Positions 2,724 through 60,459 of a stretch of 64,000 nt of DNA are shown here, piece after piece. The stretch's first letter is position 1, and every line of letters begins with the position of its first letter. The stretch is from a bacterium (GTDB lineage Bacteria > Patescibacteriota > JACMRA01 > JAYUNN01), in the NCBI GenBank assembly GCA_043761585.1, contig JAYUNN010000035.1, positions 32,706 to 96,705 of the forward strand, in the 5' to 3' direction. The position numbers were made by a program, and so were the translations under genes. Below the pieces are notes generated by a model. That model did not search any database and had not been told where the DNA came from. It saw only the letters and a list, made by a program, of their open reading frames with translations.

Positions 2724-3287
2724 TTAAAGGCTAGTATTTTGAGATCGAAAGACTTGTTCATATTTTTCAATATCAATTACTTTAGCATCTTCGATACCCC
2801 TGGTGGCGCTACCTGTAGTTGGTCTGACGATCATGCGTCTGTTACTACCTTCGCCGATACTACTACTTTCCAGACCTTTATAATCCACCAGTGAATTGTG
2901 GATCAATCGGCGCTCATATGAATTCAAGCCTTTGATAATGATTTGTGCACCGTCTTGCAAAACCTCTTTATATGCCATCTCTCGGATCATCTTGGCTATA
3001 AATCGCTCTCGACGCGTACGATATCCAGCGACATCAAGTATAAAATGTGTGCGGTTTTCAGGGTAACGAGTGTGAAAAAGTGTTCTTAAAATGTGCTGAA
3101 TTGCCAATAAATTTTCGCCCTGATCACCAATCAAAGTTTCATTGTCATCACTCTCGAGTCCAATTCGCCACTGCTGCCCCTCAGATTCAAAATTTGCCGT
3201 GAGGTTTTGGGTTAGTCCGCGAGTTACGTTTTCCAATAATTCAATGATTTCAGTTTTATACTTGATAAAGTCGGATATTTCAGACAT
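2724..3287 (-). CDS. jag: Jag/KhpB-type RNA-binding protein (KH plus R3H)
   Basis: The C-terminal R3H signature is YERRLIHNSLVDYKGLESSSIGEGSNRRMIVRP, preceded by a KH-like region. Confidence 0.75.
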   Translation of the reverse strand: MSEISDFIKYKTEIIELLENVTRGLTQNLTANFESEGQQWRIGLESDDNETLIGDQGENLLAIQHILRTLFHTRYPENRTHFILDVAGYRTRRERFIAKMIREMAYKEVLQDGAQIIIKGLNSYERRLIHNSLVDYKGLESSSIGEGSNRRMIVRPTTGSATRGIEDAKVIDIEKYEQVFRSQNTSL

Positions 3288-5788: not shown

Positions 5789-6581
5789 TCAAACTAAACT
5801 TATATAGACGTGTAGTTGCGGGCATACGCTTTTATAAAAGTATTTAGGTAAAAACTAAAAATGGCGGCATATCTCGCGGCACAACTACAATCAAACTACG
5901 GGCAAAGTAAAAGCCTGGTTATTTGATAACTCGTTTGCCTCAGTTGAGTTTTTGGCATTGATTTATATTTGAATTTTCAACCAAGTCTCGTCTAAAATTA
6001 ACAATATACTTTGCCTTGGGTTTTGCTTACGTCAGGATCACCACCTCGGGTTTAGAGAGTACTAGCTATTTACATTCCTAGCGGCCCAATTTGCGGCCCT
6101 ATCCTCCAAAAATTTACTCAGCTTGGAAAGCTTATACTTCCACTGCTTTTTAGCAAACACAGATTTCGACACTTTTAAATTTGCAATGACTGTAGACATT
6201 AATTTTACCATTTTATATATTTTCTTCCCCTAGCATATAATTTTAAACAATTTGTGATTTATACATTAGAATATTTGGAATTAATCTTATTTGTATCATC
6301 AGTATTTTGGGTTTTTTTTGTGCTGGATGTATTGCTTTTTGCCTAAGTTATGACTAAAGTAGCAATTTAGCATTAAATCGATTTACACCTTTGCAAATAT
6401 CTTTTCAGGCAAAACGCTTCCTTTGTATTTACCGATGCAGATTTATCTTGAAAATTTATTAGCATAGAGACTTTATATGTGTTTCTAGAAAGTTTGAATT
6501 GGTGCATTTCTGTACACATCCTAGCGTTAAAACTAGCTAGATTTGGTTTAGAGTGAAATGAAATATTGGACTTTAGAAATA

Positions 6582-7307: not shown

Positions 7308-8294
7308 TTATTTTTTATTTTTCTTTAATTTAAAGAATTTAGAATTTCTTTGATTTTTAGAGTTAGGCTTTTTATTTGATTCTGGTGTTTTGAAAGGTTT
7401 AACGTCTGTAGCTTGGACTTCGATGATATCACTATTTTCGAGGCTCTCAGGCTTGGTATTTATGTTTGGGTTTTCACTCGGGACTATTTCTTCGTCAATT
7501 AAAATAGGTGCTGAGTCCAATCGATGGTTTCGCGCTAAAATAAACTGTTGAATAAAACTAAAAACAGTACCGCCTAAAAAGTAAATATTCAAACCTGCAG
7601 GGAACTGTAAATTGATGACAAAACTCACCACAGGCATAAAATATGTCATCTGAAACTGCAAAGTTTTATTGAACATTTCAGGATCCATGAGTGATTCTGA
7701 GTCACTATCTTTTGTTTTCTCTTTAACTGGACCTTTTTGAGCGTCAGTTGGAAAAATATACTTTGTCATCAAAAAAGTAAAAATCAAAGTCAAGACGGAC
7801 AAAAAAGTCACAATCCAACCTTTGTCCTGAATCGGAATAAACCCAAAAGCTATATTACTAATTTGAAGCTGGTGATCGCCGTACAAAAATGGGTACAAAC
7901 CCACTAATTCCTCACCTTTATTTACTTTTTCAATCAATCTAAACAGCGCAAAATAAATCGGTAACTGTAAAAGAATGATCAGTCCCGATAAACTAGCTTT
8001 GATATTATATTTGGCATAAAGTTTTTTTAAAGCTTCTTGTTGCTTGACTATATCGCCTTTATAAACCTTTTGGATTTGCTTTATTAGTGGCTGGATTTGT
8101 CGAGTTTTTTGACCTGTAATATAGCTACTACGAATAAACGGCCACATAATAGCTCGGATCAAAAACGCCATAAAAATGGTCGCTAGTCCGACATCCCGAG
8201 AAATAAGATAAATTCCGTAAAATACATTTAAACTAGGCTGATAAAAGACAAGGTCGAAAAAGTTCATAAATTTTAGAGTATCAGAGATAGTCAA
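7308..8294 (-). CDS. yidC: membrane protein insertase YidC (short Gram-positive type) with a basic C-terminal tail
   Basis: The segment AFLIRAIMWPFIRSSYITGQKTRQIQPLIKQIQKVYKGD...LYAKYNI matches the YidC/Oxa1 core, and the tail is Lys-rich. Confidence 0.85.
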   Translation of the reverse strand: MTISDTLKFMNFFDLVFYQPSLNVFYGIYLISRDVGLATIFMAFLIRAIMWPFIRSSYITGQKTRQIQPLIKQIQKVYKGDIVKQQEALKKLYAKYNIKASLSGLIILLQLPIYFALFRLIEKVNKGEELVGLYPFLYGDHQLQISNIAFGFIPIQDKGWIVTFLSVLTLIFTFLMTKYIFPTDAQKGPVKEKTKDSDSESLMDPEMFNKTLQFQMTYFMPVVSFVINLQFPAGLNIYFLGGTVFSFIQQFILARNHRLDSAPILIDEEIVPSENPNINTKPESLENSDIIEVQATDVKPFKTPESNKKPNSKNQRNSKFFKLKKNKK

Positions 8295-8382: not shown

Positions 8383-8913
8383 ATGAATCCAAAATTTTTA
8401 CCTATAATTACAATATTGGCTTTTACCGCATTGGGTGGCTGTGCTGTTTTGGGAGCACTCTGGTCGGTAGATCATGAAAAACTCCAAGCTGAAAATCAAC
8501 GCCTGCAGACTTTGGCGATTCAAGAACGTGACTACAAATCTCAGCTTCAAGAACTGCTCGACAACAATCTAAACTCATCCTCTGAGCTAGTCCAAGCCAC
8601 TGACACCTTGATCAAAGAAGTCAAAAGCTTGTCAACTCAGGTAAAAGGTAGTTTCAGGGTTTTAAATGGTAATGTGGAGCTACTGCCTGGAGTAAACGCT
8701 AAACTGTTAGAAAACACCCAGGCTCAAGTCGAAATTGAAATAGACAATACCGATGCCAAAATTACCTCATCTATCAAGCAAAAAGACAGTATTAACAATC
8801 GAGTCAACGCAATTTTTAGTGGCAGTGATCAAAATCAGCAGAACCGAGCCGATCCTCGAGAAGGAGTCCGTAGTCCTAGTCAGCTAAACAGCACGGACTC
8901 TAATAAAAAATAA
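8383..8913 (+). CDS. hypothetical membrane-anchored coiled-coil protein
   Basis: The N-terminal hydrophobic segment PIITILAFTALGGCAVLGAL is followed by a Q/E/L-rich helical region. Confidence 0.5.
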   Translation: MNPKFLPIITILAFTALGGCAVLGALWSVDHEKLQAENQRLQTLAIQERDYKSQLQELLDNNLNSSSELVQATDTLIKEVKSLSTQVKGSFRVLNGNVELLPGVNAKLLENTQAQVEIEIDNTDAKITSSIKQKDSINNRVNAIFSGSDQNQQNRADPREGVRSPSQLNSTDSNKK

Positions 8914-9267
8914 TAAACAGACAATATTTTGCAGCTTAGATCTACAGGCCTAAAAATAAAATAAAACGCATGAAGTAGTCGAAAATAAGTAGTTGTAAAA
9001 ACTAGTATTTAAGATTAACTTCCTGCATTTCTAAGCTCGACTTGTTTATTGACGCAAAAAACGCAGTTTGTCAAGTGTCGTGTGGTATAAATACTTGACA
9101 ATGGCATTTTGGTTGGCTGGATGACCTTATATTCTAAATATTTACTGATTAAGACAGAAAAAAGATAAGCGTGAGATTTTTGTTTCGTGGAAACATTGGC
9201 TTAAATCCAAATAGCAAAACTCCTAAAACATTAAAGCAAAATACTTTCATCAAAAGTCAAAGCTTTT

Positions 9268-9420
9268 TATTTTCCACTTTGCCTTAGCATTTGGACTTCT
9301 TAGCTGCGCAAAACCTTTCACCGCAAGCAAAGCTAAACTTTTTATTATTTCAAGACTCAGATCGCATACTCTGCCATTCCAAGTAAGGTGTTTTTGGAGA
9401 AAGAAGTGGAGAAAGTGGGC
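9268..9420 (+). repeat. intergenic element family X, copy
   Basis: Shares ordered blocks with the other X copies: ttccactttgccttagcatttggact, caagcaaagc, atttcaagactcagatcgc and aagtaaggtgtttttgg, then a purine-rich tail. Terminal pairing is tccacttt with aaagtgg. Confidence 0.6.
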
Positions 9421-9564
9421 TCAATATTTGGTTTTGCTGTAAATTTTTAAATTAGGTCAGTTTTTTTGTGCTAATTGCTCGCGACAAAATAATATACACA
9501 TAAAAAAATTCCCTATTAGGGGAAGGGGAATGTAAATATAGATTTAATTTTTGTAGTTGAGGTT

Positions 9565-9787: not shown

Positions 9788-9912
9788 AATTTTTCTCTAA
9801 AACTAAAAAATACACTCGCTTAGAACAGTCTTAAAACTACAGCAAAATTTTAGATTTGTCAAGAAGATGGTTTCAAAGTCTTTTTTTAGAAAGAATTAAG
9901 GCTAAAACAAGT
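9788..9912 (-). repeat. intergenic element family X, reverse-oriented copy
   Basis: The plus-strand ctaaaaaatacactcgcttagaacag matches the reverse complement of the X 3' block (ccaaaaaatacctcgtttagagcag at 50700-50730). It lies just downstream of the minus-strand gene 9966..10574. Confidence 0.45.
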
Positions 9913-9965: not shown

Positions 9966-10574
9966 TTAAATTAATTCAGAAACTTTTTGATTATAAAGCT
10001 TGATAAATTCGGGATGAGACTGACTTAGTTTCGCAATCGAATCATCATTTAACTGCAAATATAAATTTACTTGATTTGATATCATGGCTTGAAATAGAGT
10101 TTGCTTGGTGGTGTTGTAGTAAAGCGTTTGCGAGTTTGCGATATCGCTGGCTACATCATGTATTTCATCTGCTGTGAAACGCACCAAATTTCTTTTAGGG
10201 GCAACCAATCCCAAACTGTCAGCCAAAAATGGACGGCATAAGATATAGATATTTTCCGTTTGAAAATCTTGCCAGATATGCTCCAAAATTCGATCCATAG
10301 TTCCAGGTTTGGTGGACACAAAACACCCAATATTTATGATTTCAACTCCATCAAGAAATATATTAAAATCTCGCTCTATCAAAACGGCTGCCACTAACAC
10401 ATTTTTAATCTCCTCAATCCAATATACAGAATCACCCTTTAGGGCAATTTTATTTATATATGATCGTTCGCGAATGGGAACTAAAGGGCTATATCGCACT
10501 ATGAGCTTGTGGAGCTGACTTACGATTGAGCTCCGATTGCGACTTATTCGATTTAGTAGGTTTTTTTGTGCCAC
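9966..10574 (-). CDS. hypothetical protein
   Basis: A 202-aa ORF with a GTG start and no confident motif. Confidence 0.5.
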   Translation of the reverse strand: MAQKNLLNRISRNRSSIVSQLHKLIVRYSPLVPIRERSYINKIALKGDSVYWIEEIKNVLVAAVLIERDFNIFLDGVEIINIGCFVSTKPGTMDRILEHIWQDFQTENIYILCRPFLADSLGLVAPKRNLVRFTADEIHDVASDIANSQTLYYNTTKQTLFQAMISNQVNLYLQLNDDSIAKLSQSHPEFIKLYNQKVSELI

Positions 10575-15160: not shown

Positions 15161-15399
15161 AATTTATTTAGATAAATCGCGATATTTTTAGATAATTTCT
15201 ATGAAAACTGCAGACTAAATATCAATTTTTATATTGTTTTTAGCTGTTTTTTTTAAAACCCAAAAATCAAACTTTAAAAATAAACTCTCTTGCATGTAAT
15301 TTTGGGATGTTTTTACAGAATAAATTCTCTCTTGTCACAAAGTTTGCTACAAACAAGAGTAAAAATTAATTTTTTGGTACTTAGCTATTTTTTACAATG

Positions 15400-15595
15400 A
15401 AATACTCATCTCAAAATATGATTGTTTTGTGTTTTCGATTCTGCCTTAGTATTAGACTCATTCTTTTTACACAATCTCGCTTTGCAAGGAATAAAGCAAC
15501 ACTTTCCTTATTTTTTCAAAGTCCAAATATGCTCTTTCCTATTAATCCGACCCAAGCAAGGTATTTTTTAGGGTAAAGTTTAGATGAGGGGACAC
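15400..15595 (+). repeat. intergenic element family X, copy
   Basis: Blocks ctgccttagtattagactcattc, ctcgctttgcaagg, attttttcaaagtccaaatatgc and caagcaaggtattttttaggg. Terminal pairing is ctcatct (15405-15411) with agatgag (15582-15588). Confidence 0.6.
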
Positions 15596-15753
15596 GTTTA
15601 ATACTTTAATACTTAGTTTAGTTACTAAGATTTTAATAAAAATTAGGTGATTAGATCAAAAAAATACTTATATACCAGACCCATACCAAAACCTAGGCAT
15701 TCACTATCAACAGATTGTATTTATAGCTCAAATAGCTAATTAAGAAATCACTT

Positions 15754-17259
15754 TTATTCTTGCACCATGCTAATTTTTGCACCTAGGCTATTTAGCCGTT
15801 CGGCGATTTGCTCATAGCCTCGATTGATTGAGTACACGTTGCGTAGCACTGACACACCGCTGGCTCCAAGCATGGCAATCAAAATGATAGTAGCTGGCCT
15901 AAGGGCAGGCGGACAGACCACTTGAGCTGCAGAGAAATGTGTGCCACCTTCAATATAAACTCGATGAGGATCAGCCAAAATCATGGATGCACCTAGTCTA
16001 GTTAGTTCCATAAAATAAATTGCCCGAGTCTCGTAGCTCCAGTCGTGAACCAGGGTCGTACCATCTGCTAGCGCCGCAATCGGCACGAAAAATGGTAGAT
16101 TATCCATGTTGATACCTGGGTATGGATTGCTGCAAATTTTATCAGGCAGAGCTTTGAGTTTGGATGGTTTAGTAGTGATGTCGACTAATTTGGTCATGCC
16201 ATTTTTAGAGATATAGGGCTTAGTTTTGGTGTATTTAAAACCCATTTTTTCTAGTTTTAAAAGCTCTAATGATAAAAAATCAATCGGGCAGCGGGTGATA
16301 GTTATACTACTTTGAGTGACTATAGCCGCCGTTAAAAACATCATGGTCTCAGTAGGATCTTCGCTATTGTAGTACTCCACATCCTGATCAATATTTTCTA
16401 CGCCATAGACAGTCATAGTCGAGGTACCGATACCGTCAACCCGCACACCTAACTTGATCAAAAAATTGGCGACCTCTTGAACCATGTAGTTAGCTGACGC
16501 AAATTTTATGGTAGTTTTCCCAGGTATTTTAGCTGCAGCTAGCAAAATATTTTCGCAAGCCGTGTCTCCAGCTTCGTACATAATTACTTCTGCGGCTTTA
16601 AGTTCACCAACTTTTATATCATAGGTGGTATTTGTGGTCTTGATTTTGACACCTAGGCTTTCTAGGCCGTACTGATGCGCAGTAATGCTGCGAGTACCCA
16701 GTTTGCAGCCTTGAGAGTTGGGAATTGAAAAATTTTTAAATAAATGAATTATTGGTCCGATAAACATTAAAATAGTCCTAGTTTTTCGGGCTGAATCAGC
16801 ATTTATACCACCCAGATTTAGCTCTTTGGGCGGAGTGATTTCTAAGCTTTTAAGATCTACCCATTTTGTCACCACACCGATACTTTCCATAACCTCTAAA
16901 ATACGATTAACCTCTTCAATTCTTGGAATTCCGTGCAGAGTAGTTTTACCCTTATTTAGCAAGCTTGCACAGAGCAAACCCATGGCACCATTTTTGGAAG
17001 TATTGGTTTCGATCGTGCCGCTGAGTTGGTGACCACCTTCAATTTTAAAGTCCATCGAACTTTTAATAGTAATAAATTTACGATTTAAAGCTTGGCTTAT
17101 TTTAGTTAGCATTTCAGTGGAAAAATTTTGCTCACCTTTCTCCATTCTAGCTATAGCACTTTGACTGGTACCTAAAAGCTCTGCAAAATCAGCCTGAGTC
17201 AACTCTTTTTGCTCGCGTAGATCTTTGACAAAAGTAGCGATCTTACCCTGTAATGACAT
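15754..17259 (-). CDS. murA: UDP-N-acetylglucosamine 1-carboxyvinyltransferase (MurA) with an N-terminal XRE-type HTH domain
   Basis: Residues 1-65 are LREQKELTQADFAELLGTSQSAIARMEKGEQNFSTEMLTKISQAL (HTH_3 pattern). The remainder matches MurA: SGTIETNTSKNGAMGLLCASLL, and the catalytic Cys context QGCKLGTRSI. Confidence 0.85.
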   Translation of the reverse strand: MSLQGKIATFVKDLREQKELTQADFAELLGTSQSAIARMEKGEQNFSTEMLTKISQALNRKFITIKSSMDFKIEGGHQLSGTIETNTSKNGAMGLLCASLLNKGKTTLHGIPRIEEVNRILEVMESIGVVTKWVDLKSLEITPPKELNLGGINADSARKTRTILMFIGPIIHLFKNFSIPNSQGCKLGTRSITAHQYGLESLGVKIKTTNTTYDIKVGELKAAEVIMYEAGDTACENILLAAAKIPGKTTIKFASANYMVQEVANFLIKLGVRVDGIGTSTMTVYGVENIDQDVEYYNSEDPTETMMFLTAAIVTQSSITITRCPIDFLSLELLKLEKMGFKYTKTKPYISKNGMTKLVDITTKPSKLKALPDKICSNPYPGINMDNLPFFVPIAALADGTTLVHDWSYETRAIYFMELTRLGASMILADPHRVYIEGGTHFSAAQVVCPPALRPATIILIAMLGASGVSVLRNVYSINRGYEQIAERLNSLGAKISMVQE

Positions 17260-20330: not shown

Positions 20331-20460
20331 TTGGAAATTTAGACTCAAGGCATGATTTTATAGTCAAGATTCCCCAAAATAGTTTTAAAAATATTTTAAA
20401 TTCAAATACTAAATCTCCCTGAGACAAGATACTTTATCAAAAAGTAAATCGTGTAATTTT

Positions 20461-20585
20461 TACACTCCGTCCCACCATTTAAGCTCCTGAGCTCCACAAA
20501 TTCGCTTTGCTTATTTATTCTGAGTTCAAACAGTTGCGCAGTAATTACGTTTCAAACGAGGTGTTTTTTGTAGCAGTAGAAGCTT
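20461..20585 (+). repeat. intergenic element family X, copy
   Basis: Blocks tacactccgtcccacc, ctcctgagctccacaaattcgctttgc, gagttcaaacagttgcgcag and caaacgaggtgttttttgtagc. It starts 130 nt downstream of the murF stop. Confidence 0.6.
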
Positions 20586-20808
20586 TTAATATTTGGTATC
20601 GATATTAGAGTTTTAAAGGTTCTAACTTGTCATATCGCGCTACTATCATAATTTCTTAGGATCAAGAACGGTTAAAAAAATGTTTGACAAAAAACAGGAT
20701 ATACAACTTAAATTAGAAAACAGTTTTAGTGGTATGTTTGGTGCGGACTAAGAGGAATGCCCACAGTATTTAGCCAAAAATCACCCCAGTTTATAATAGT
20801 CTAAAAGT

Positions 20809-28050: not shown

Positions 28051-30375
28051 ATGTCTACCCAAAATCAATTACCATCAATTACCCTTTTTGACACATATTT
28101 AAGGCAAAACGTTAGCTTGAATATGGAAAATACAGTCGTTCCAGGCACTATAAAAATGTATTCCTGTGGCCCGACCGTGTATGGATATCAGCATATTGGC
28201 AATATGCGTGCAGTTTGGCTACCAGAGACGATCGCAAACCTAGCTAAAATGGCTGGTTACGAGGTGGAATGGGTCTCAAATATCACCGATGTTGGTCATT
28301 TGGTCGATGACGGTGATGACGGTGAAGATAAACTAGAAAAAGGTGCCAAGCGTGACGGCAAAGATGTCAGATCGATAGTGGATTTTTATACTGATGATTT
28401 TATAGTGCAGTGCAAAACCTTGAATTTTGACTTACCTACAGGCAAAATGAACCCGAAAGCTACTGAGTATATCCAGGAGCAGATGATTTTGGCCTTAAGC
28501 CTACTTCGAGATCAAAAAGCCTACCTTTTAGAGGATGGTATTTATTTTGATAGCGATAAACTCAAAACTCAAAACTCAGAAAAAGCAACAAATAATCTTG
28601 AGAAAATTGTAGAAAAAATCCAAATATTAAAATCTAAAAAGAATCACAAGCCTTTTATAGTAGTTATTGATGGGCGAGCTGGAAGCGGTAAAAGTACCTT
28701 GGCTAAAGAAATCCACTCCCAAATCGATGATTCAAAATATTTCAATTTAGATGCTTATACAATTCGTGGTGGTAATTCATTTAATCAACTAAATATTGAT
28801 CAAACTTTTGAGGCAGACTTTGAAAATACGCAATATGAAACCGATCGAATTGCAGCGGAGATATTAAAAAATCAGGGCAGTTTAATCATTTTAGATGGTT
28901 GTTTTAGTTATAAAAATTTAGCTAATATTGAGATCGATTTTAAAATATGGGTCGAAGTAGACAAAGATACTGCCTTGGAAAGGGCATTGGCTAAAGAGCT
29001 CACAAAAGATCAAGACGCAAGTCTAGAAACGATCAAACTATCAAGTGTAAAATGTCAAGAAGCCGAAGATAGGTATATTTTGGAGTTTGACCCTAAAAAT
29101 AGGGCAGACCTAAGTATTTTTGCACGAAACCATAACTATGAAATTATTGAAAATATCAAAAACTACACTGGTCGCGACATCAAAAACACTACTAAAAATC
29201 CTGAAGATTTCGCACTTTGGAAATTTGTCGATGAGAAGAGTCTGCAAAAATGGCGAATGGGGGACTTTACTGGTGCAAATCAAATCATTGAGCAAATTAA
29301 AAATGCATCGAATTCACAAGACTTAATCCAAACTCCTATCAACCAACAACAAGAGAATAATCGAGTTTTTACTCAAACCTTGGATTTTGAGGCTTTGTAC
29401 AGTAGTTGGAGCTGTCCAGGTTGGCACTCTGAGTGCGTGGCCATGATTAGCCAGATTATCGGGTCAAAGCGATTTAGTTTCGTAAATCAAGTTAAAAATA
29501 GCCAGTCTGATATAGGTTCCAGTGAAATTAAGCGTGTAGAAAATATCAAAGCTGAAATAGATATTCACACGGGCGGCGAAGATCATATCGATATTCACCA
29601 TAAAAATGAGCGATTACAGTCTAAAGCCATGGGTTTTGAGCTCTCAAAATATTGGGTTCACAATAAATTTGTTACCGTAGATGCCAAAAAAATGAGTAAA
29701 AGTCTGGGAAATGTCTATACGGTTACAGGTAAATTTACCAAAACTGGCTTTTATAGCTTTGAAAATCCACCGATAAATCAATTTAACCCAGAGTTGAAAC
29801 ACCAAATCGCGAAAAAATATCTTGAACTTAAGCTTATCAAAAATGTTGCAGAAATAGACTGGGATAACTTTAAATTTGATCCTTTAGCATTTAGGATGCT
29901 GCTGATGGAACATCATTACACCGATCAAATGAATTTCACTTGGGACAAACTTTGGCAAAGTCAGATGAGACTTTGGGGGCTGCGCAAAGAGGCAGCTAAA
30001 CTACAAGATCAAAACTCCATCCAAAGTGCTCATAAATCAGTTAATTTTGAAAATCTACTTAGCATTTTAGCCAATAATTTAGATATTCCAAATTTTTTGG
30101 AAAAATATCATGCACTGCTAGTGCAGACAGCTCAAACAAATCAACTGGATAATATTTACACACTTGATTATCTAGACCAAAACTTCTTGAAGTTAAGCCT
30201 CTTCAGACCTCAAACAGAAGCAAAAATTCTTGATTTGGCCTCGATTCGTCAAAAATTTAAAGCGGAAAAAGACTATCAAAAATCTGATGAAGTTCGTGCT
30301 AAAATCCAAGAGTTTGGCTATCAGGTTGATGATTATTCTGTAGGTTGTGGACTTTGGTGGCGAGGCGATCGCTAG
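28051..30375 (+). CDS. cysS: cysteinyl-tRNA synthetase with a ~210-aa insertion containing a P-loop kinase-like domain
   Basis: HIGH motif (YQHIGNMR), DFALWKF, the zinc/active-site context CPGWHSECVAM, and KMSKS. Between YFDSDK and NPEDFALWK lie a Walker A (VVIDGRAGSGKSTLAKE), a Walker B-like segment (SLIILDGCF) and the Udk-like FKIWVEVDKDTALERALAKE. Confidence 0.85.
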   Translation: MSTQNQLPSITLFDTYLRQNVSLNMENTVVPGTIKMYSCGPTVYGYQHIGNMRAVWLPETIANLAKMAGYEVEWVSNITDVGHLVDDGDDGEDKLEKGAKRDGKDVRSIVDFYTDDFIVQCKTLNFDLPTGKMNPKATEYIQEQMILALSLLRDQKAYLLEDGIYFDSDKLKTQNSEKATNNLEKIVEKIQILKSKKNHKPFIVVIDGRAGSGKSTLAKEIHSQIDDSKYFNLDAYTIRGGNSFNQLNIDQTFEADFENTQYETDRIAAEILKNQGSLIILDGCFSYKNLANIEIDFKIWVEVDKDTALERALAKELTKDQDASLETIKLSSVKCQEAEDRYILEFDPKNRADLSIFARNHNYEIIENIKNYTGRDIKNTTKNPEDFALWKFVDEKSLQKWRMGDFTGANQIIEQIKNASNSQDLIQTPINQQQENNRVFTQTLDFEALYSSWSCPGWHSECVAMISQIIGSKRFSFVNQVKNSQSDIGSSEIKRVENIKAEIDIHTGGEDHIDIHHKNERLQSKAMGFELSKYWVHNKFVTVDAKKMSKSLGNVYTVTGKFTKTGFYSFENPPINQFNPELKHQIAKKYLELKLIKNVAEIDWDNFKFDPLAFRMLLMEHHYTDQMNFTWDKLWQSQMRLWGLRKEAAKLQDQNSIQSAHKSVNFENLLSILANNLDIPNFLEKYHALLVQTAQTNQLDNIYTLDYLDQNFLKLSLFRPQTEAKILDLASIRQKFKAEKDYQKSDEVRAKIQEFGYQVDDYSVGCGLWWRGDR

Positions 30376-31267: not shown

Positions 31268-31360
31268 GTTGGTTCTTCTGAAGTTTGCTACATCAAATCA
31301 CTTTAGCTATGTAAAAATGATTACCACAAAGGTAGGGTTTTGTAGTGCTAAAGATTCCAA
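31268..31360 (+). repeat. possible partial copy (3' half) of element family X
   Basis: gaagtttgctacatcaaatcacttt resembles atagtttgctactcatcaattcgctt at 60328-60353, and cacaaaggtagggttttgtagtgc resembles the X 3' block. Confidence 0.3.
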
Positions 31361-31621
31361 AAGCCTTAATGAGGTGCGAAATAAAGTGATTTAATTTTCT
31401 ATAAATACATCTTATTTTAAAGAGTTTCGTTATTTGGATTAAAAATAATTTAGTATTTATTACTATTTGAAGCAAATTAATCAAGGTGCGCATTACCCTA
31501 AATTTCAAGGCAATTTCAAGGCTTTAACTGTGCAAAATATATAACTAACTAATTGCTCTCTAAATAAGATCAAGCAAAGAAAAACCAGCCTCGCGAAAAA
31601 GACTGGTTTGTTAAGATAATT

Positions 31622-36964: not shown

Positions 36965-37384
36965 TCGCACCAAAAGGTTTAGCTAAAATATACACCCATT
37001 ACAATATTTCACTTTGTTTTCCAAATTTGTTTTGGTTGAGAATGTGTAGTAAATGTCTTGGGTTTTTTGATTGTGGCAAGTGATAAACACATCTGAAGTT
37101 CTATCTCATATCTTCATCATAAGTTTATTAAATCGAAATAAGCTATTGCAACTCGGGCTACCTCATCTTTGTGCGGTGAGAAAACTTGTTTTAATTAAAG
37201 GTGATTGCACTTGACTTTTTGTATTTTTATGGTGTAAAAATAAATTTACTCGGTAGTAAAATTTGAGAATTTATGATTATAGTAATTTATTTCGTTGGTA
37301 AAATTTGCTATAAATCTGGATTTCAGGTAGAACTTTGAGATATTTATAATCAGCCGCGACCACAAAATTAAAATACTACAAAAC

Positions 37385-38994: not shown

Positions 38995-40653
38995 ATGTTT
39001 CGCAGAATACTACTTGCATTTACGGATGCCGAATTGAGAACTAAACTTCTTAAAATTATATTGTTAATTTTGACTGCCAGATTTTTGGCACACATTCCGA
39101 TTCCAGTTTTAGGTATCCAAGATATTTCTGGAACTATAAATAATGATGCTGCTTTGAGTCTTTTAAATACCATTTCAGGTGGTGGATTCGGGCAACTTTC
39201 ATTTGTAATGCTCGGAATTGGACCCTATATTACTGCTTCAATTGTATTTCAACTTTTAGGTGTTTTATTTCCCAAAATCAAAGAAATTCAACGTGAAGAA
39301 GGTGAAACTGGGCGTAATAAAATCAATAAATGGACTCGCTGGCTAACTGTTCCACTGGCAGCAATTCAGGCTTGGGGAATTTTAAATTTCTTAGCTAGTG
39401 ATAACGGCTCAAACACACGAGTAGTTCTACCTAAAGTGTTGACTCCAGAGGGCGGAGCTATTACTAGTGAAAGCTTCTTATACTGGCTCGCTATCGTAGG
39501 TAGTATGGTAATCGGCTCACTAATAGTGATGTGGATTGGAGAAATTATTACCGAATATAAAATGGGAAATGGTATCTCGATCATGATTTTATCAGGAATC
39601 GTCTCAAAGCTTCCAGGAAGCATCTACAAAATTCTTTTTGGTAATCCAGATACTGGTACAACTGGCGTTATTTACAACTTATTTAAAGCTGTCTCCCGAA
39701 TTTTTACAAACCCTCAATCCTTGCTTAATTGGGACAAATGGAAAGGTTTTTGGAATACAAATTATTACTGGGCACCAACTAGAAATATAATTTTCTTCTT
39801 AGTTATCTTTTTGATTACTTTGACTTTCGTAGTATTTATAAACGATGCCGTTAGAAAACTTGTTATCATCTATTCTAGGCGTGGACACAACGAAGGAACT
39901 AGTCGAACTTTATCTCAAGTCAAGTCTGATTTGCCAGTTAAAGTCAACCAAGCCGGTGTAATCCCAATAATCTTCTCAGTATCTTTTATTTTATTCCCGT
40001 CTATTATTTCTAGATTTTTCCAAACTGCAAACCAGCAAGGATTACGGCAAGGTGCCAAAGCCGTTAGTGATTTCCTGAGTGCTGACTCAAAAATTGGTGC
40101 ACATTTCCTATCTTATCAAGTCTCAAACAAAGTCGAAGCTCTTAATGGTATCAAATTTGTGACTAACCCAACTACTTCTCAAAACTTTACTGGGTTAAGT
40201 TGGTTTGAAGGCTTTAATTGGTCAAAATTGAATATTGATTGGTTGCCAAGTTTCACTTGGACTTTCAATGGAATACTAGCGTACAACTTTTTCTACTTTT
40301 TCTTGATTGTATTTTTCACTTATTTTTACACTACCATCATTTTCAATACTGAGGAAATTTCTGAAGATTTGCAAAAAAATGGTGCTTATATTCCTGGGTA
40401 TAGACCTGGAGTTGAGACTTCAGATTATCTAAGTGGAGTATCAAATAGACTGAATGTAGCTGGTAGTTTTTTCCTTGCAATTATTGCTCTGATACCTTTA
40501 TTATTTTCAAATGCTATCACTTTTGGTGACAGTAATGTCAATGGAATTATTGGGGGGACATCACTTTTGATTTTAGTTGCGGTAACTATCGAGACTTTAA
40601 AACAAATTGAAACTCAGGCAATTTCTATCGATTATGATAGATTTGCTAAATAA
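38995..40653 (+). CDS. secY: preprotein translocase SecY, enlarged (552 aa)
   Basis: LLKIILLILTARFLAHIPIPVLG, SLLNTISGGGFGQLSFVMLGIGPYITASIVFQLL and NGAYIPGYRPG are SecY signatures. The protein has two extra loops relative to typical ~440-aa SecY. Confidence 0.85.
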   Translation: MFRRILLAFTDAELRTKLLKIILLILTARFLAHIPIPVLGIQDISGTINNDAALSLLNTISGGGFGQLSFVMLGIGPYITASIVFQLLGVLFPKIKEIQREEGETGRNKINKWTRWLTVPLAAIQAWGILNFLASDNGSNTRVVLPKVLTPEGGAITSESFLYWLAIVGSMVIGSLIVMWIGEIITEYKMGNGISIMILSGIVSKLPGSIYKILFGNPDTGTTGVIYNLFKAVSRIFTNPQSLLNWDKWKGFWNTNYYWAPTRNIIFFLVIFLITLTFVVFINDAVRKLVIIYSRRGHNEGTSRTLSQVKSDLPVKVNQAGVIPIIFSVSFILFPSIISRFFQTANQQGLRQGAKAVSDFLSADSKIGAHFLSYQVSNKVEALNGIKFVTNPTTSQNFTGLSWFEGFNWSKLNIDWLPSFTWTFNGILAYNFFYFFLIVFFTYFYTTIIFNTEEISEDLQKNGAYIPGYRPGVETSDYLSGVSNRLNVAGSFFLAIIALIPLLFSNAITFGDSNVNGIIGGTSLLILVAVTIETLKQIETQAISIDYDRFAK

Positions 40654-41391: not shown

Positions 41392-41532
41392 GGTTTTATT
41401 TAGTGTTTCTAAGGTAAATAGTCACGGTCACTGTGCCTTTTGGTGTGGTTGACCGATTTTTTTAGCTTTAAATCTTTAAATTCAACACCCAAACCTTTTA
41501 AATACTTTTATCAGAAATTTGATTGTTTTATT

Positions 41533-41685
41533 TACACCCGCCCAGTGATCTGGTTTCCTGAGCCCCCAAAATCTGGTTTGGTAAGGCAATTTTATAGCTT
41601 TCTATTTTTATTTTAAAAGTTAAACGGTCGTGGGATTCATTCATTTTAAAGGTGTTTTTTGTGGTAAGGGTTAAAGGGAGATGAG
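41533..41685 (+). repeat. intergenic element family X, copy
   Basis: Blocks tacacccgcccagtg, ttcctgagcccccaaaatctggtttgg and ttaaaggtgttttttgtggtaagggttaaagggagatgag. It overlaps, and probably explains, the 67-aa minus-strand ORF 41528..41731. Confidence 0.55.
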
Positions 41686-41965
41686 CTTTGTATTTGGTTT
41701 TACTATTAAAGCATCCGCGTCTTTTACTCACTTAAACTTATGTTCGAAAAGTGCGATATATTAATTATTTTTGCATTGTTTCAAGCAAGATCAATTTACT
41801 ATGAAAACCACAATTTACTTCAAATTAAACACAATGATTTTGTATTTTGGCCATTTGGAATTTAAAAATTTCTTGATTAAAAATACAGGCAAATTTAATT
41901 TTGAATTTAAAAGTTTGGTAATTTTGGGATTTAGACTAGTCTGACACTCAAAAGCAAAATAGGAC

Positions 41966-43692: not shown

Positions 43693-44241
43693 ATGGGAAC
43701 TCTTACGCATTTTAAAAGATCTGCAACTACCCCGAAAGCTTCGCCTTCACCCCTAAATAGGGGTACGAGTACTGCCACTACAAATAGTACCCCTTTCAAG
43801 GGGTCAGAGCGGAGCTTTCGGGGTTGTGCCGAGCTTGCACCAGAGGTAATAGCTCTATTTCAAAGAACTCACTATAACAAAAGTCTTTTAAATAGGTCGA
43901 AGAACATGTCGCGAACCATGACAAAAGCTGAAAGTCGAATCTGGTTTGATTTGCTATCCAAAAAACAGTTACTCGGTTTAAAATTTATCAAGCAGAAAAT
44001 CGTTTTTAGTTATATATTAGACTTTTACTGCTCTGAGCTGTCTCTAGCCATAGAAATCGATGGAGAAAGCCACGATGCAAAGCTTGATTATGACAAAACT
44101 CGAGACAATTACATTAAGGCTTGTGGTATAAATGTTATAAGATTAAGTAATCATGATGTTTTTGGGAATTTAGAAGGGGTTAGGGAGTTTTTGATTGAGG
44201 AGGCGGGGAAGATTAAAAGTTTTAAAATTAATAAAACATAA
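43693..44241 (+). CDS. DUF559 (Vsr/PD-(D/E)xK-like) endonuclease-domain protein
   Basis: MTKAESRIWFDLLSKKQLLGLKFIKQKIVFSYILDFYCSELSLAIEIDGESHD...IRLSNHDV is the DUF559 core. The first ~45 codons are encoded by hairpin-rich DNA, so the true start is uncertain (next ATG at 43906). Confidence 0.7.
   Translation: MGTLTHFKRSATTPKASPSPLNRGTSTATTNSTPFKGSERSFRGCAELAPEVIALFQRTHYNKSLLNRSKNMSRTMTKAESRIWFDLLSKKQLLGLKFIKQKIVFSYILDFYCSELSLAIEIDGESHDAKLDYDKTRDNYIKACGINVIRLSNHDVFGNLEGVREFLIEEAGKIKSFKINKT
43729..43824 (+). other. ~95-nt three-way-junction-like structured element at the 5' end of the DUF559 ORF
   Basis: An outer 15-16 bp stem (43730-43744 with 43809-43823, one U:G on the plus strand) encloses hairpins acccctaaataggggt (43749-43764) and acccctttcaaggggt (43789-43804). 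Confidence 0.6.
43786..43830 (+). repeat. left arm of an inverted repeat bracketing the DUF559/HEPN-motif cassette
   Basis: agtacccctttcaaggggtca (43786-43806) is the exact reverse complement of 44748-44768. Roughly 15 of the next 24 inward positions also match. Confidence 0.75.
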
Positions 44242-49065: not shown

Positions 49066-49163
49066 CAGGAGCTACAGGGCGTCCAAAAAGCTCAGTAAAA
49101 GGAGTAAGGGAATTTCCAAATGCTCATTCGTATGAATTTGCTAATCTGGATCAATGCAAGCGA

Positions 49164-49373
49164 GTGATTAAAACTATTGATCTATTTATCCAGATACATG
49201 AAACGGAAGACGAAAATAATCCATATAAAATTGTCACAAGTAAAACAATAGTAAATGCAGGAATTTATAGTGACAGAAAAAAAGTAGCTCCATTGTTTAG
49301 CACTCTTTCACTAAATAGCCTTATCATATATGGTGGGCAAAGGTTCTATTGGAAGCTAAATCCTGAAAAGTAA
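49164..49373 (+). CDS. small ORF, possibly winged-helix-like; frame is open from 49050 without an ATG
   Basis: GTG start in the track. The same frame is open 38 codons further upstream (GATGRPKSSVKGVREF...). This could be a truncated gene. Confidence 0.3.
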   Translation: MIKTIDLFIQIHETEDENNPYKIVTSKTIVNAGIYSDRKKVAPLFSTLSLNSLIIYGGQRFYWKLNPEK

Positions 49374-49426
49374 GAAGAGCTAAAAGCTTACAAAGGATAT
49401 TGCATTGGATTAGCAATACCATAAAC

Positions 49427-50148: not shown

Positions 50149-50541
50149 TTAAATTCTAGAATTTGGGTTAAGTTCTTCATCGCAATTGAATTCAAAGTAG
50201 AGATTAAATTGTACCGATTTAGGTAATTGGACCAATAAAGGCTTTAAAGATTTTAAATTTACGGGCATTTTTTGGTAGTTTTTTATCAAAATCAGTAATT
50301 CTTGTTCTAATTTTGGATACTCTAAATAGTCCATTTTATCCCAATCGTAGACTATAATTTGCCCAATTTTTTGTCGTATTTCACACCGAGTTTGATAAAT
50401 TTTTTTAAAAAGATGGAAATTTTCAACTATAAAAATTAAAAAGTGTGTCGAGGATATTACGAGCTGTTTGATACCGTTACACAGGTTTTCAGACGAAGTC
50501 CGAGTGGTTCTATCTGAAACTGTTACGGTTTCGTGTGTCAC
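50149..50541 (-). CDS. hypothetical protein
   Basis: A 130-aa ORF with no motif recognised. Confidence 0.45.
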   Translation of the reverse strand: MTHETVTVSDRTTRTSSENLCNGIKQLVISSTHFLIFIVENFHLFKKIYQTRCEIRQKIGQIIVYDWDKMDYLEYPKLEQELLILIKNYQKMPVNLKSLKPLLVQLPKSVQFNLYFEFNCDEELNPNSRI

Positions 50542-50589
50542 AGCCTAAAACCTCTAAAAAAAGCTATGTTTATAAAAAATCAGCTCATT

Positions 50590-50755
50590 TTTACATTCTC
50601 TACATCGCTCCAGTATCGGACTCTTTCCTTTTTACAAAGTCTCACTTGATAAAGAAGGCTATGATCTTTTTACTTGTTCCGAGTTCAAACAGTTCTGCAG
50701 CAATACTGCTCTAAACGAGGTATTTTTTGGGAAGAGGGCGGGGAAATATAAAAAT
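50590..50755 (+). repeat. intergenic element family X, copy
   Basis: Blocks ccagtatcggactctttcctttttacaaagtctcacttg, gagttcaaacagttctgcagcaatactgc and taaacgaggtattttttgggaagagggcgggg. Its orientation is opposite to the flanking minus-strand genes. Confidence 0.6.
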
Positions 50756-50779
50756 AGGAAATAAAAAAGAGTGTGTTTA

Positions 50780-51415
50780 TTACTTTGTTCGGTTATTGAC
50801 AGGCATAAACTGGAATTGTAAACCATAAAAGATTAGCATCTCAAATAGGCTAAATCCCAAAATAAATACCAAGCCCTGCCAGCCAGGATTTAGTTTGCCC
50901 AGCACATCGAGCGGAGCAGTAAAAATATCCCAAGAGTTTAGCCGCACAAATCTACCTAAATAAATCCCAAAGCTAATCACTCCAAAATACAGTATTTGGA
51001 AAAATATTTTAGGTTTAAATTCTTTAAAAAGTAGCTGGGTTTGGCTGTAAAATAAGACTATTCCGATGAGAAAAAGTCCAAGCATGCTTAGTAAATTTCC
51101 TAAATCTGGGCTAATTGCACTATTTTTTAATAACTCCCAAAATTGAAGTGGTGTACCACCTCGATCGTAAATATTTGCACTTGGGTCAGTCGCAAAAATA
51201 TGAACTAAGTCGGTGGTTAGGTAAATACTGTTTGGTAAAAATAAAAACATCACCAACAAATTTAAGTAGTATAAAGATTTGAGGGACTTTCTTTGAGATA
51301 ATTTGGCTAAAGACCAAAAAATATACGGTACAATTGCCAAAGCAACGTTCCAAATTATCCAATATTTAATGATAAAGTTGGCTAAAAAATTCATATACTT
51401 CAAGATATGTTTCAA
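50780..51415 (-). CDS. polytopic membrane protein (possibly DUF1361-like), last gene of the pspA operon
   Basis: 211 aa with about 6 TM. NVALAIVPYIF and LPNSIYLTTDLVHIF resemble what I recall of DUF1361. It starts 16 nt after the AAA+ gene stop. Confidence 0.5.
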   Translation of the reverse strand: MKHILKYMNFLANFIIKYWIIWNVALAIVPYIFWSLAKLSQRKSLKSLYYLNLLVMFLFLPNSIYLTTDLVHIFATDPSANIYDRGGTPLQFWELLKNSAISPDLGNLLSMLGLFLIGIVLFYSQTQLLFKEFKPKIFFQILYFGVISFGIYLGRFVRLNSWDIFTAPLDVLGKLNPGWQGLVFILGFSLFEMLIFYGLQFQFMPVNNRTK

Positions 51416-59423: not shown

Positions 59424-59719
59424 ATAAATTACTATCTATAATTTACATGAAATAGTGATAGTAATCCGTAGTTTAGTTCACGGTAGCGATTATAAGCACC
59501 AATTAAAGTTTCTATAGTTTGTATTTTTCACTATAGAATTTGTAAACTTTTTTAAAACCAAGTAGATTATTAGACTATAAAATACTGCGACCATTTTAGG
59601 CAAAAAAACTGATTTTAGTATGGCGATAACGTCGAGTATTACTGCTGCGAGACAGTTCATCGCTCAATTTATAATAGTTTTTTTTATAAATAATTTATAT
59701 CTTTTAAGATTCAAGATTT

Positions 59720-60163: not shown

Positions 60164-60229
60164 TATGCAGTTAAGTTTTCAAACTTCAGTTGATAAATAG
60201 CAGGAATTTATAGGTTTGAGACTTTTTAT

Positions 60230-60397
60230 ACTTTCCACCTCGTCCTGGCATTTCCACTCCTGAGCTCCCCAAAACTTTGCTTTGTACGAAAAAGGGCGAG
60301 TTTTCATTATTTTTTTCAAAGTTTAAATAGTTTGCTACTCATCAATTCGCTTCAAATAAGTTGTTTTTTTTGCCGAGAAGATGGAAAGAAGATGGAT
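60230..60397 (+). repeat. intergenic element family X, copy
   Basis: Blocks ctttccacctcgtcctggcatttccactcctgagctccccaaaactttgctttg, tttttttcaaagtttaaatagtttgctactcatcaattcgc and caaataagttgttttttttgccgagaagatggaaag. Terminal pairing is ctttccacc with gatggaaag. Confidence 0.6.
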
Positions 60398-60411
60398 TAA
60401 AAATAGGCGTG

Positions 60412-60437
60412 AAAAATCCCAGGACAAGAGCCTGGGA
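60412..60437 (-). terminator. rho-independent terminator of the Thr/Ala/Gly-rich surface protein gene
   Basis: Stem tcccagg/cctggga (7 bp, 7-nt loop), followed on the minus strand by a T5 run. Confidence 0.65.
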
Positions 60438-60459
60438 AATTTAATTTAGATCCTTTAGT

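What the first reader, a model, noticed from the sequence alone, without database searches (positions are those of the whole stretch)
9268..9420. Diverged family of ~125-195 bp intergenic elements (family X) with conserved ordered blocks and compensating terminal pairing, mostly just 3' of co-oriented genes
**Copies.** I can align these copies by eye:

- 9268-9420 (+)
- 15400-15595 (+)
- 20461-20585 (+)
- 41533-41685 (+)
- 50590-50755 (+)
- 60230-60397 (+)
- 9788-9912 (-)
- Possible partial or degenerate copies at 31268-31360, 5811-5975, 6005-6190 and 15640-15753 (-)

**Shared blocks, in order.**

- A pyrimidine-rich 5' arm: ttccacYt..gccttagYatt.gact, or tacacYccg.ccc.
- ctgagcYcc.caaa...gctttg.
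- ttttcaaagtYYaaatagt, or gagttcaaacagtt.
- aaRgtRttttttg.
- A purine-rich 3' arm such as ggagaaagaagtgg, gagaagatggaaag or gggaagagggcgggg.

**Terminal pairing.** The two arms are complementary within a copy but differ between copies: tccacttt/aaagtgg, ctcatct/agatgag, ctttccacc/gatggaaag. This is what compensatory change in a structured RNA, or the inverted repeats of an old MITE, would look like.

**Position.** Most copies start 20-350 nt after the stop codon of a gene on the same strand (murE, 8383-8913, the CAP gene, murF, the exonuclease, the ligA-like gene, and 9966-10574 for the minus copy). The copy at 50590 is an exception.

Roughly one copy per 8-10 kb is a high density for a small genome.
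Basis: seen in the sequence. Interest (0 to 1): 0.7.

Follow-up and report, generated by a model that had tools for sequence, protein, structure and literature searches.

The report
Old miniature-transposon-like intergenic repeat family
The repeats are real: about 240-bp non-coding units with inverted-repeat ends lie between the genes of a small Patescibacteria-type genome, and they look like old copies of a miniature transposon rather than a structured RNA.

Summary
The six plus-strand copies are a genuine family. Each is recovered by a profile built without it (E 6e-7 to 9e-16), while shuffled controls stay at E ≥ 0.1.

- **Unsupported copies:** the minus-strand copy at 9788-9912 and three of the four "possible" copies.
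- **Fourth "possible" copy:** it overlaps a real truncated minus-strand copy at 31333-31434.
- **True size:** units are about 235-280 bp, longer than reported. They end in inverted boxes (consensus CCAAATAGCGAAAC … GTTTCGCTATTTGG).
- **More copies:** three lie just outside the window. Three lie in an unrelated metagenomic organism, where they are 84-86% alike, have unrelated flanks, carry a perfect 14-nt terminal inverted repeat, and in one case sit between a 10-nt direct repeat.
- **Relatives:** about 73 kb from relatives of both organisms holds none.
- **RNA evidence:** no consensus structure, fold z-scores near 0 on both strands, no Rfam match, no conserved reading frame.

Best reading: a non-autonomous transposon (MITE-like) family whose copies here are old.

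Unexplained: a 9:1 strand bias, and an SD-like box, AAACGAGGTGTTTTTTG, that is unusually well kept. No transposase partner was found.

The parts
9208..9442 (+). It lies between gene 8383-8913 (+) and tRNA-Arg (-), which converge.
   Evidence: Leave-one-out E 2e-11. Full-length profile 9209-9440, E 1e-47. Boundaries.
9207..9220 (+). 5' terminal inverted-repeat box CCAAATAGCAAAAC of the 9208-9442 copy.
   Evidence: One mismatch to the young-copy box CCAAATAGCGAAAC. It pairs with GTTTTGCTGT at 9431-9440.
9379..9397 (+). Block 4, CCAAGTAAGGTGTTTTTGG. This is the best-kept box of the family (consensus CCAAACGAGGTGTTTTTTGG).
   Evidence: Alignments. Conservation is over-dispersed.
9425..9442 (+). 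3' box TATTTGGTTTTGCTGTAA, homologous to the 3' terminal inverted repeat GTTTCGCTATTTGG of the young copies.
   Evidence: Alignment of downstream flanks. Helix count.
15379..15627 (+). Full copy between the CAP-domain gene (+) and murA-like gene (-), which converge. A 9-nt TAAAAATTA direct repeat lies near both ends.
   Evidence: 15384-15626, E 6e-36. The upstream gene's own terminator-like hairpin is at about 15207-15255.
20375..20607 (+). Full copy with a 24-nt internal deletion, between the Mur-ligase-like gene (+) and secE (+).
   Evidence: 20389-20606, E 9e-35.
31333..31434 (-). Truncated copy holding only the 5' half: terminal box, A-rich box, pyrimidine arm and CACAAAAC box. It lies between tRNA-Val (-) and the holB-like gene (-). 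It is the only minus-strand copy.
   Evidence: Full-length profile E 2e-5, model positions 3-113. Sequence read. Box GTTTCGTTATTTGG at 31424-31437 has 1 mismatch.
41459..41708 (+). Full copy between the RNase-H-like exonuclease gene (+) and nrdR (+). It starts directly after that gene's terminator hairpin and T-run.
   Evidence: 41470-41707, E 2e-34. Terminator -14.4 kcal/mol, ending at 41456.
50538..50798 (+). Full copy lying antisense between two minus-strand ORFs. Its assigned 3' box overlaps the last codons of the DUF1361 gene.
   Evidence: 50548-50797, E 3e-40.
60194..60455 (+). Full copy between the BRCT-domain gene (+) and the DUF2808 gene (-), which converge. Its 3' part holds the neighbouring minus-strand gene's terminator hairpin (CCCAGG…CCTGGG).
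   Evidence: 60196-60453, E 4e-32.

Best explanation
Family X is a family of small non-autonomous DNA transposons (MITE-like) in Patescibacteria-type genomes.

**Anatomy.** A unit is about 235-280 bp and has, in order:
1. a 5' terminal inverted-repeat box (CCAAATAGCGAAAC)
2. an A-rich box (AAnAAGATACTTTTATCAAAAA)
3. a pyrimidine-rich arm (TTTTCCAC…)
4. a CACAAAAC box
5. a TTATTTTTTCAAAGTTCAAACAGT box
6. a CCAAACGAGGTGTTTTTTGG box
7. a purine-rich spacer of variable length
8. the 3' inverted box (…GTTTCGCTATTTGG)

**Shown**
- The family and its true boundaries.
- The inverted ends.
- Near-identical copies with unrelated flanks in a second organism.
- Patchy presence among relatives.
- No coding capacity and no conserved RNA fold.

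**Inferred**
- Copies were inserted by a transposase acting in trans on the inverted ends.
- Insertions survived mainly where they do no harm: between convergent genes and behind terminators.
- The ten copies of this genome are old. They are 47-60% alike and have lost end complementarity and foldability, so they are probably immobile relics.
For: - **Real multi-copy family.** Leave-one-out E 6e-7 to 9e-16. Shuffled controls E ≥ 0.1. Three more copies lie just outside the window, in contigs of the same genome.
- **Second organism.** A metagenome pattern scan found true members only in contigs of one other organism, extended by L024. Those three copies are 84-86% alike, and their flanks are unrelated to one another and to the window.
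- **Terminal inverted repeats.** Similarity between the three young copies starts and stops at CCAAATAGCGAAAC / GTTTCGCTATTTGG. The repeat is perfect over 14 nt in L024 B, exact over 12 nt in A and 13 of 15 in L023.
- **Family-wide end pairing.** The homologous end boxes pair in 70% of cells, against 36-48% in slid registers. The covariation score is 0.206 against 0.134 in shuffles (3 of 500 shuffles reach it).
- **Copy-specific end pairing.** p = 0.0003 for all 11 copies and 0.008 for window-genome copies alone.
- **Flanking direct repeats.** A 10-nt repeat, GTTTATTTAG, brackets the L023 copy and includes the upstream gene's stop codon. Across 11 copies the longest flank repeat averages 6.2 nt for own flanks against 4.9 for mismatched flanks (p = 0.0006). 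Two own-flank pairs reach 9 nt or more; none of 110 mismatched pairs does.
- **Fold only in young copies.** Young copies fold strongly on both strands (z -2 to -5.4), as inverted repeats do. Window-genome copies do not (z about 0).
- **Patchy distribution.** There are no copies in 73 kb from relatives of either organism. The site after the exonuclease gene lacks the element in relatives with 90% and 84% protein identity.
- **Non-coding.** There are stops in all frames, and indels between blocks are not multiples of three.
- **Context.** Among the 11 full copies, six lie between convergent genes and one between divergent genes.
Against: - No transposase is present in the window (Pfam on 40 ORFs). 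No isolated pair of matching ends was found in about 300 kb of fetched loci. The autonomous partner is therefore hypothetical.
- Target-site duplications are not consistent. Only one of the three young copies has a clean one. In L024 A and B the flanks just outside the ends are inverted, not direct.
- Orientation is biased 9 plus to 1 minus in this genome. All four copies between convergent genes are plus. A cut-and-paste MITE does not predict this.
- Conservation is uneven. Per-column variance is 2.10, against 1.54 expected for uniform decay (99.9th percentile 2.0). The box AAACGAGGTGTTTTTTG survives in copies that are otherwise about 50% alike, and in both organisms.
Confidence: 0.6

Rival explanations
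1. A family of functional non-coding elements kept by selection, whether MITE-derived or not. This could be a plus-strand small RNA or a cis-acting RNA or DNA module. It would act through sequence motifs rather than a fold: the SD-like GAGGTG plus U-run, C/U-rich 5' arm and GGA-rich 3' arm.
For: - The blocks are kept in the same order in two unrelated organisms, although overall identity is about 50%.
- Conservation is over-dispersed.
- Strand bias is 9:1.
- The ends pair better as plus-strand than as minus-strand RNA in 10 of 11 copies, but this is only marginally beyond the composition effect (p = 0.046).
- Three upstream genes terminate before the element, so if it is transcribed it would be a separate unit.
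Against: - No consensus structure.
- Fold z-scores about 0.
- No Rfam match.
- No consensus promoter in front of the copies and no hairpin before the T-run.
- Spacing between blocks varies by tens of nucleotides.
- Absent from close relatives.
- One copy is truncated with no sign of being missed.
Confidence: 0.2
2. A mobile element of another mechanistic class. It would be inserted in one orientation into palindromic or terminator-like targets by a site-specific recombinase or a single-strand transposase (IS110/IS1111-like or HUH type), not by a DDE cut-and-paste enzyme.
For: - Orientation bias.
- Target duplications are inconsistent.
- In L024 A, L024 B and 9208-9442, complementarity extends beyond the shared ends into copy-specific flanks, as expected for insertion into a palindrome.
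- The 41459 copy abuts a terminator.
- The 5' end is better kept than the 3' end.
Against: - There is a clear 12-14-nt terminal inverted repeat and a 10-nt direct repeat at L023.
- The flanks share no target motif.
- No recombinase was found nearby.
- No conserved subterminal hairpins occur in window copies.
Confidence: 0.12
3. 3' UTR or transcription-terminator modules belonging to the upstream genes.
For: Ten of the 12 copies whose upstream neighbour is known follow a co-oriented gene. The unit contains a conserved T-run.
Against: - No stem precedes the T-run.
- Three of five upstream genes have their own hairpin plus T-run before the element.
- Co-orientation is automatic between convergent genes, which account for six of the 11 full copies.
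- One copy is antisense to both neighbours, and one sits between divergent genes.
Confidence: 0.05
4. Chance resemblance of AT-rich spacer DNA.
For: Pairwise BLAST finds only a few short matches. Identity is about 50%.
Against: Leave-one-out E-values reach 9e-16. Shuffled controls stay at E ≥ 0.1. Independent members were recovered from another metagenome.
Confidence: 0.01

Closest known systems
Bacterial MITEs (for example Correia elements of Neisseria, RUP of Streptococcus pneumoniae, ERIC/IRU of enterobacteria, Nezha of cyanobacteria). Named from my own knowledge; none was compared by sequence.
   Same: Size of 100-400 bp, non-coding, many dispersed intergenic copies, terminal inverted repeats, flanking direct repeats in some copies, patchy distribution among related genomes. 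Young copies fold as a long imperfect hairpin.
   Different: - No sequence similarity to any of them was tested or is claimed.
- No cognate insertion sequence is known.
- Target duplications are irregular.
- The copies in this genome are far more diverged (47-60%) than typical MITE families, yet keep internal boxes.
- There is a 9:1 strand bias.
- My two literature searches found no description of MITEs in Patescibacteria.
REP/BIME elements
   Same: Intergenic, multi-copy, often between convergent genes, with a non-random orientation.
   Different: REPs are 20-40-nt GC-rich palindromes, often clustered. These units are about 250 bp, AT-rich, solitary and not palindromic inside.
Multi-copy small-RNA gene families (for example LhrC, csRNA, Qrr). 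Named from my own knowledge.
   Same: Several diverged paralogues in spacers, with conserved C/U-rich and SD-like motifs.
   Different: Those have clear promoters, terminator hairpins and conserved stems. None was found here. sRNA genes also lack terminal inverted repeats and flanking direct repeats.
Integron attC / VCR repeats
   Same: Co-oriented repeats of about 60-140 bp, each just 3' of a gene.
   Different: attC sites are imperfect palindromes with conserved R/L boxes, and they follow promoterless cassette ORFs in arrays. Here the genes are housekeeping genes on both strands, the repeats are not palindromic, and no integrase is present.

Membership tests
MITE (non-autonomous DNA transposon) | Small (about 100-400 bp), non-coding, several dispersed copies | tested here: met
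   Ten copies in about 72 kb of this genome and three in a second organism; 233-277 bp each. Stops in all frames, and indels between blocks are not multiples of three.
MITE (non-autonomous DNA transposon) | Terminal inverted repeats at the exact element boundaries | tested here: met
   The young copies have 14 of 14, 12 exact and 13 of 15 nt, located where similarity between copies ends. Family-wide, 70% of cells pair against 36-48% in slid registers. The repeats are degenerate in most window copies.
MITE (non-autonomous DNA transposon) | Target-site duplications of a fixed length flanking each copy | tested here: inconclusive
   There is a 10-nt repeat at L023 and a 9-nt repeat near 15379-15627. 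As a set the flank repeats are significant (p = 0.0006). Two of the three young copies lack a clean one, and no fixed length emerges.
MITE (non-autonomous DNA transposon) | Presence/absence differences between related genomes (empty sites) | tested here: inconclusive
   No copies in 73 kb of relatives. The site after the exonuclease gene is unoccupied in two relatives, but the downstream gene differs there, so it is not a strict empty site.
MITE (non-autonomous DNA transposon) | A cognate autonomous element with the same ends that encodes a transposase | tested here: not met
   None in the window (Pfam). No isolated pair of matching ends in the fetched loci.
Structured non-coding RNA family | Conserved secondary structure supported by covariation | tested here: not met
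RNAalifold gives 0 pairs on the plus strand and a 7-bp helix of -0.8 kcal/mol on the minus strand. Only the outer 12-bp end helix shows weak covariation.
Structured non-coding RNA family | Folding energy below that of shuffled sequence | tested here: not met
   Window-genome copies have z from -1.4 to +1.7 on both strands. Only the young copies fold well, and they do so on both strands.
Structured non-coding RNA family | Match to a curated Rfam family | tested here: not met
   Only three tRNAs reach gathering score. Nothing lies on the elements at E ≤ 5, in the window or in the young copies.
Intrinsic terminator / 3' UTR module | GC-rich hairpin immediately followed by a U-run at the end of the upstream gene's transcript | tested here: not met
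   No stem abuts the conserved T-run. Separate terminator-like hairpins precede three of five copies.
REP/BIME | Short (20-40 nt) GC-rich imperfect palindrome | tested here: not met
   The units are about 250 bp, AT-rich and have no internal palindrome.

The most novel reading that the evidence does not exclude
The copies in this genome are not neutral relics but domesticated elements. After losing their inverted ends they would be kept, mostly in one orientation, for a sequence-level function. That function would involve the AAACGAGGTGTTTTTTG box and the purine-rich tract that follows it. It could be an unstructured regulatory RNA that mimics or binds ribosome-binding sites, or a polar DNA signal read along the chromosome. 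Either would explain the 9:1 strand bias and the uneven conservation.
Probability: 0.2. Interest if true: 0.6.

Novelty: new member of a known kind. Interest (0 to 1): 0.35.

Why it matters
- Patescibacteria (candidate phyla radiation) genomes are small and compact, and are usually thought to hold little repeated DNA.
- Here one repeat family makes up about 2.5% of the window and about 17% of its intergenic DNA. It accounts for part of the unusually long spacers compared with a close relative.
- My two literature searches found no description of MITEs in this group.
- The family is a ready marker for strain and lineage comparison, and a lead to an unidentified transposase.
- If the kept internal box and the strand bias reflect function, it would be an example of transposon domestication in a minimal genome.

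Tried and rejected
- **Protein coding:** six-frame translation shows stops everywhere, and short ORFs after the SD-like box differ in frame and length (and reading).
own-copy against other-copy RNAduplex, p = 0.45.
- **Consensus RNA structure on either strand:** none.
- **Rfam:** gathering and E ≤ 5 modes give nothing.
- **Sigma-70 promoter and terminator scan:** counts are no higher than in shuffles, and no listed site lies in front of the two copies covered.
- **Other repeat families:** sensitive all-against-all BLAST of spacers finds none.
- **Viral contigs:** two patterns, no match.
- **Long inverted repeats in window copies:** Smith-Waterman of the 5' part against the reverse-complemented 3' part is barely above shuffled (18.0 vs 15.7 ± 2.5).
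- **Plus-strand RNA advantage of end pairing:** marginal (p = 0.046).
- **Fixed short target duplication (TA, TTAA, TWA) or shared target motif:** none is consistent.
- **Longer contig for the L023 locus:** only 2012 nt exists.
- **One script timed out** and was redone.

Full report
**Setting.** The window has 36% G+C and is densely packed with housekeeping genes on both strands. These include Mur ligases, an HTH-fused murA, secE, secY, nrdR with ribonucleotide reductase genes, yidC, ribosomal proteins L19 and S1, and three tRNAs. The nearest named homologues come from Patescibacteria / candidate-phyla-radiation bins. Identical DNA is present in several Logan assemblies.

- A MAFFT alignment of the seven listed copies shows the ordered blocks.
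- In leave-one-out nhmmer, each of the six plus-strand copies is recovered by a profile built from the others. E-values are 2e-11, 2e-11, 2e-12, 6e-7, 5e-15 and 9e-16.
- The minus-strand copy at 9788-9912 is not recovered at E ≤ 10.
- Eleven window-equivalents of shuffled or reversed sequence never do better than E 0.1.
- Larger profiles run at maximum sensitivity find nothing at 5811-5975, 6005-6190 or 15640-15753.
- The full-length profile does find a truncated copy on the minus strand at 31333-31434 (E 2e-5).

**More copies.**
- *Same genome.* Contigs that overlap the window ends carry three further copies, all in the window's plus orientation. One starts about 10 nt beyond the window end. 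One lies about 4 kb further on and is cut by the contig end. One lies about 1 kb to the left of the window start.
- *Second organism.* A degenerate pattern that matches five window copies and no shuffle was scanned over the JGI metagenomes. Of seven loci returned, two are true members, both from sample Ga0105045. A longer ENA contig of one of them, L024, gives both flanks.
- *Age contrast.* The three copies in the second organism are 84-86% alike. The window-genome copies are 47-60% alike, and 48-57% like the young ones.
- *Unrelated host.* The second organism shares no nucleotide similarity with the window outside the elements.
- *Relatives.* About 73 kb from relatives of both organisms contains no copy.

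**True anatomy.** Among the young copies, similarity begins at CCAAATAGCGAAAC and ends at GTTTCGCTATTTGG. This inverted repeat is perfect over 14 nt in L024 B, exact over 12 nt in A, and 13 of 15 in L023. The unit is therefore about 235-280 bp.

**Evidence at the ends.**
- I counted pairs on the homologous 12-nt end boxes of all 11 full copies. 70% of cells pair, against 36-48% when the register is slid. One position shows CG, GC, AU, UA and GU pairs. The covariation score is 0.206 against 0.134 in shuffles, and 3 of 500 shuffles reach it.
- The ends of a copy pair better with each other than with the ends of other copies (p = 0.0003 for all copies; p = 0.008 for window-genome copies alone).
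- A 10-nt direct repeat, GTTTATTTAG, brackets the L023 copy and includes the stop codon of the upstream gene.
- As a set, flanking direct repeats are longer for a copy's own flanks than for mismatched flanks (6.2 vs 4.9 nt, p = 0.0006). None of 110 mismatched pairs reaches 9 nt.
- Only one of the three young copies has a clean duplication. In L024 A and B the sequences just outside the ends are inverted rather than direct.

**RNA tests.**
- RNAalifold finds no pairs on the plus strand and a negligible 7-bp helix on the minus strand.
- Single-sequence z-scores are zero or positive for the cores.
- For full-length window-genome copies, z is about 0 on both strands. The young copies have z from -2 to -5.4 on both strands, as expected from inverted repeats in DNA.
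- Rfam gives nothing.
- No reading frame is conserved.
- Three of five upstream genes have their own terminator-like hairpin and T-run before the element.
- No hairpin precedes the element's own T-run.

**Context and orientation.** The figures below cover all 13 copies: 11 full, the truncated one and the one cut by a contig end.

| Context | Copies |
|---|---|
| Between convergent genes | 6 |
| Tandem, co-oriented with both neighbours | 3 |
| Antisense to both neighbours (50538-50798) | 1 |
| Between divergent genes (L024 A) | 1 |
| One neighbour unknown | 2 |

Between convergent genes, 'co-oriented with the upstream gene' is automatic. What remains is a 9:1 strand bias in this genome, with all four copies between convergent genes on the plus strand. 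I cannot explain this from 64 kb.

**Interpretation.** The combination points to a MITE-like non-autonomous transposon family:
- small, non-coding, dispersed copies
- inverted ends located exactly at the boundaries
- flank repeats
- near-identical copies with unrelated flanks in one organism
- absence from relatives
- foldability only in young copies

The copies in this genome would be old.

Four points count against a simple relic picture:
- No transposase partner was found.
- Target duplications are irregular.
- Orientation is biased.
- Conservation is uneven (per-column variance 2.10 against 1.54 expected). The SD-like box AAACGAGGTGTTTTTTG is kept in both organisms.

These leave room for a domesticated or otherwise functional element (about 0.2), or for a different transposition mechanism (about 0.12).

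**Verdict.** The finding is real but needs its coordinates, copy list and 'compensatory' claim corrected. It is best filed as a new member of a known kind, of moderate interest.

Noticed in passing
window 28051-30375 (+): A 774-aa cysteinyl-tRNA-synthetase-like ORF has NB-ARC / AAA / NACHT-type P-loop hits at residues about 185-330, inside the class I catalytic domain. This could be an inserted NTPase domain.
   Followed up: no
window 38995-40653 (+): SecY is 552 aa long. The 306-position Pfam model is stretched over residues 69-535, which implies large insertions. The relative L012 has the same length.
   Followed up: no
window 15754-17259 (-): A MurA/EPSP-synthase-type enzyme is fused to an N-terminal Cro/C1-type HTH domain.
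   Followed up: no
window 43693-44241 (+): A DUF559 (Vsr-like endonuclease fold) ORF sits between the ribonucleotide reductase small- and large-subunit genes, downstream of nrdR.
   Followed up: no
window 5789-6372, 36965-37384, 49066-49426, 59424-59719: These long spacers (296-584 nt) hold no family-X copy and no other repeat detectable by BLAST. The spacer equivalent to 36965-37384 is only 79 nt in the relative L012.
   Followed up: partly
L024 1046-1054 and 2606-2614; L023 about 302-310: All three young copies carry a perfect extended -10 (TGGTATAAT) on the strand antisense to the element, next to block 4. It would read towards the element's 5' end. Window copies lack it.
   Followed up: partly
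L024 940-975, 2500-2535; L023 about 385-420: The young copies contain an extra GC-rich hairpin of about 25 nt (for example GGCGAC-ACGGG-GTCGCC) that is absent from all window-genome copies. One stem position differs on both sides between copies (G-C against U·G).
   Followed up: partly
window 2724-3287 and 7308-8294 (-): jag/R3H-like and yidC genes are present. This neighbourhood is often close to the replication origin, and the cumulative GC skew has its minimum near 14-16 kb. That bears on any replication-based reading of the strand bias.
   Followed up: no
window about 31500-31521 (-): A tandem duplication of CCTTGAAATT lies just upstream of the truncated copy, downstream of the tRNA-Val terminator.
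   Followed up: no
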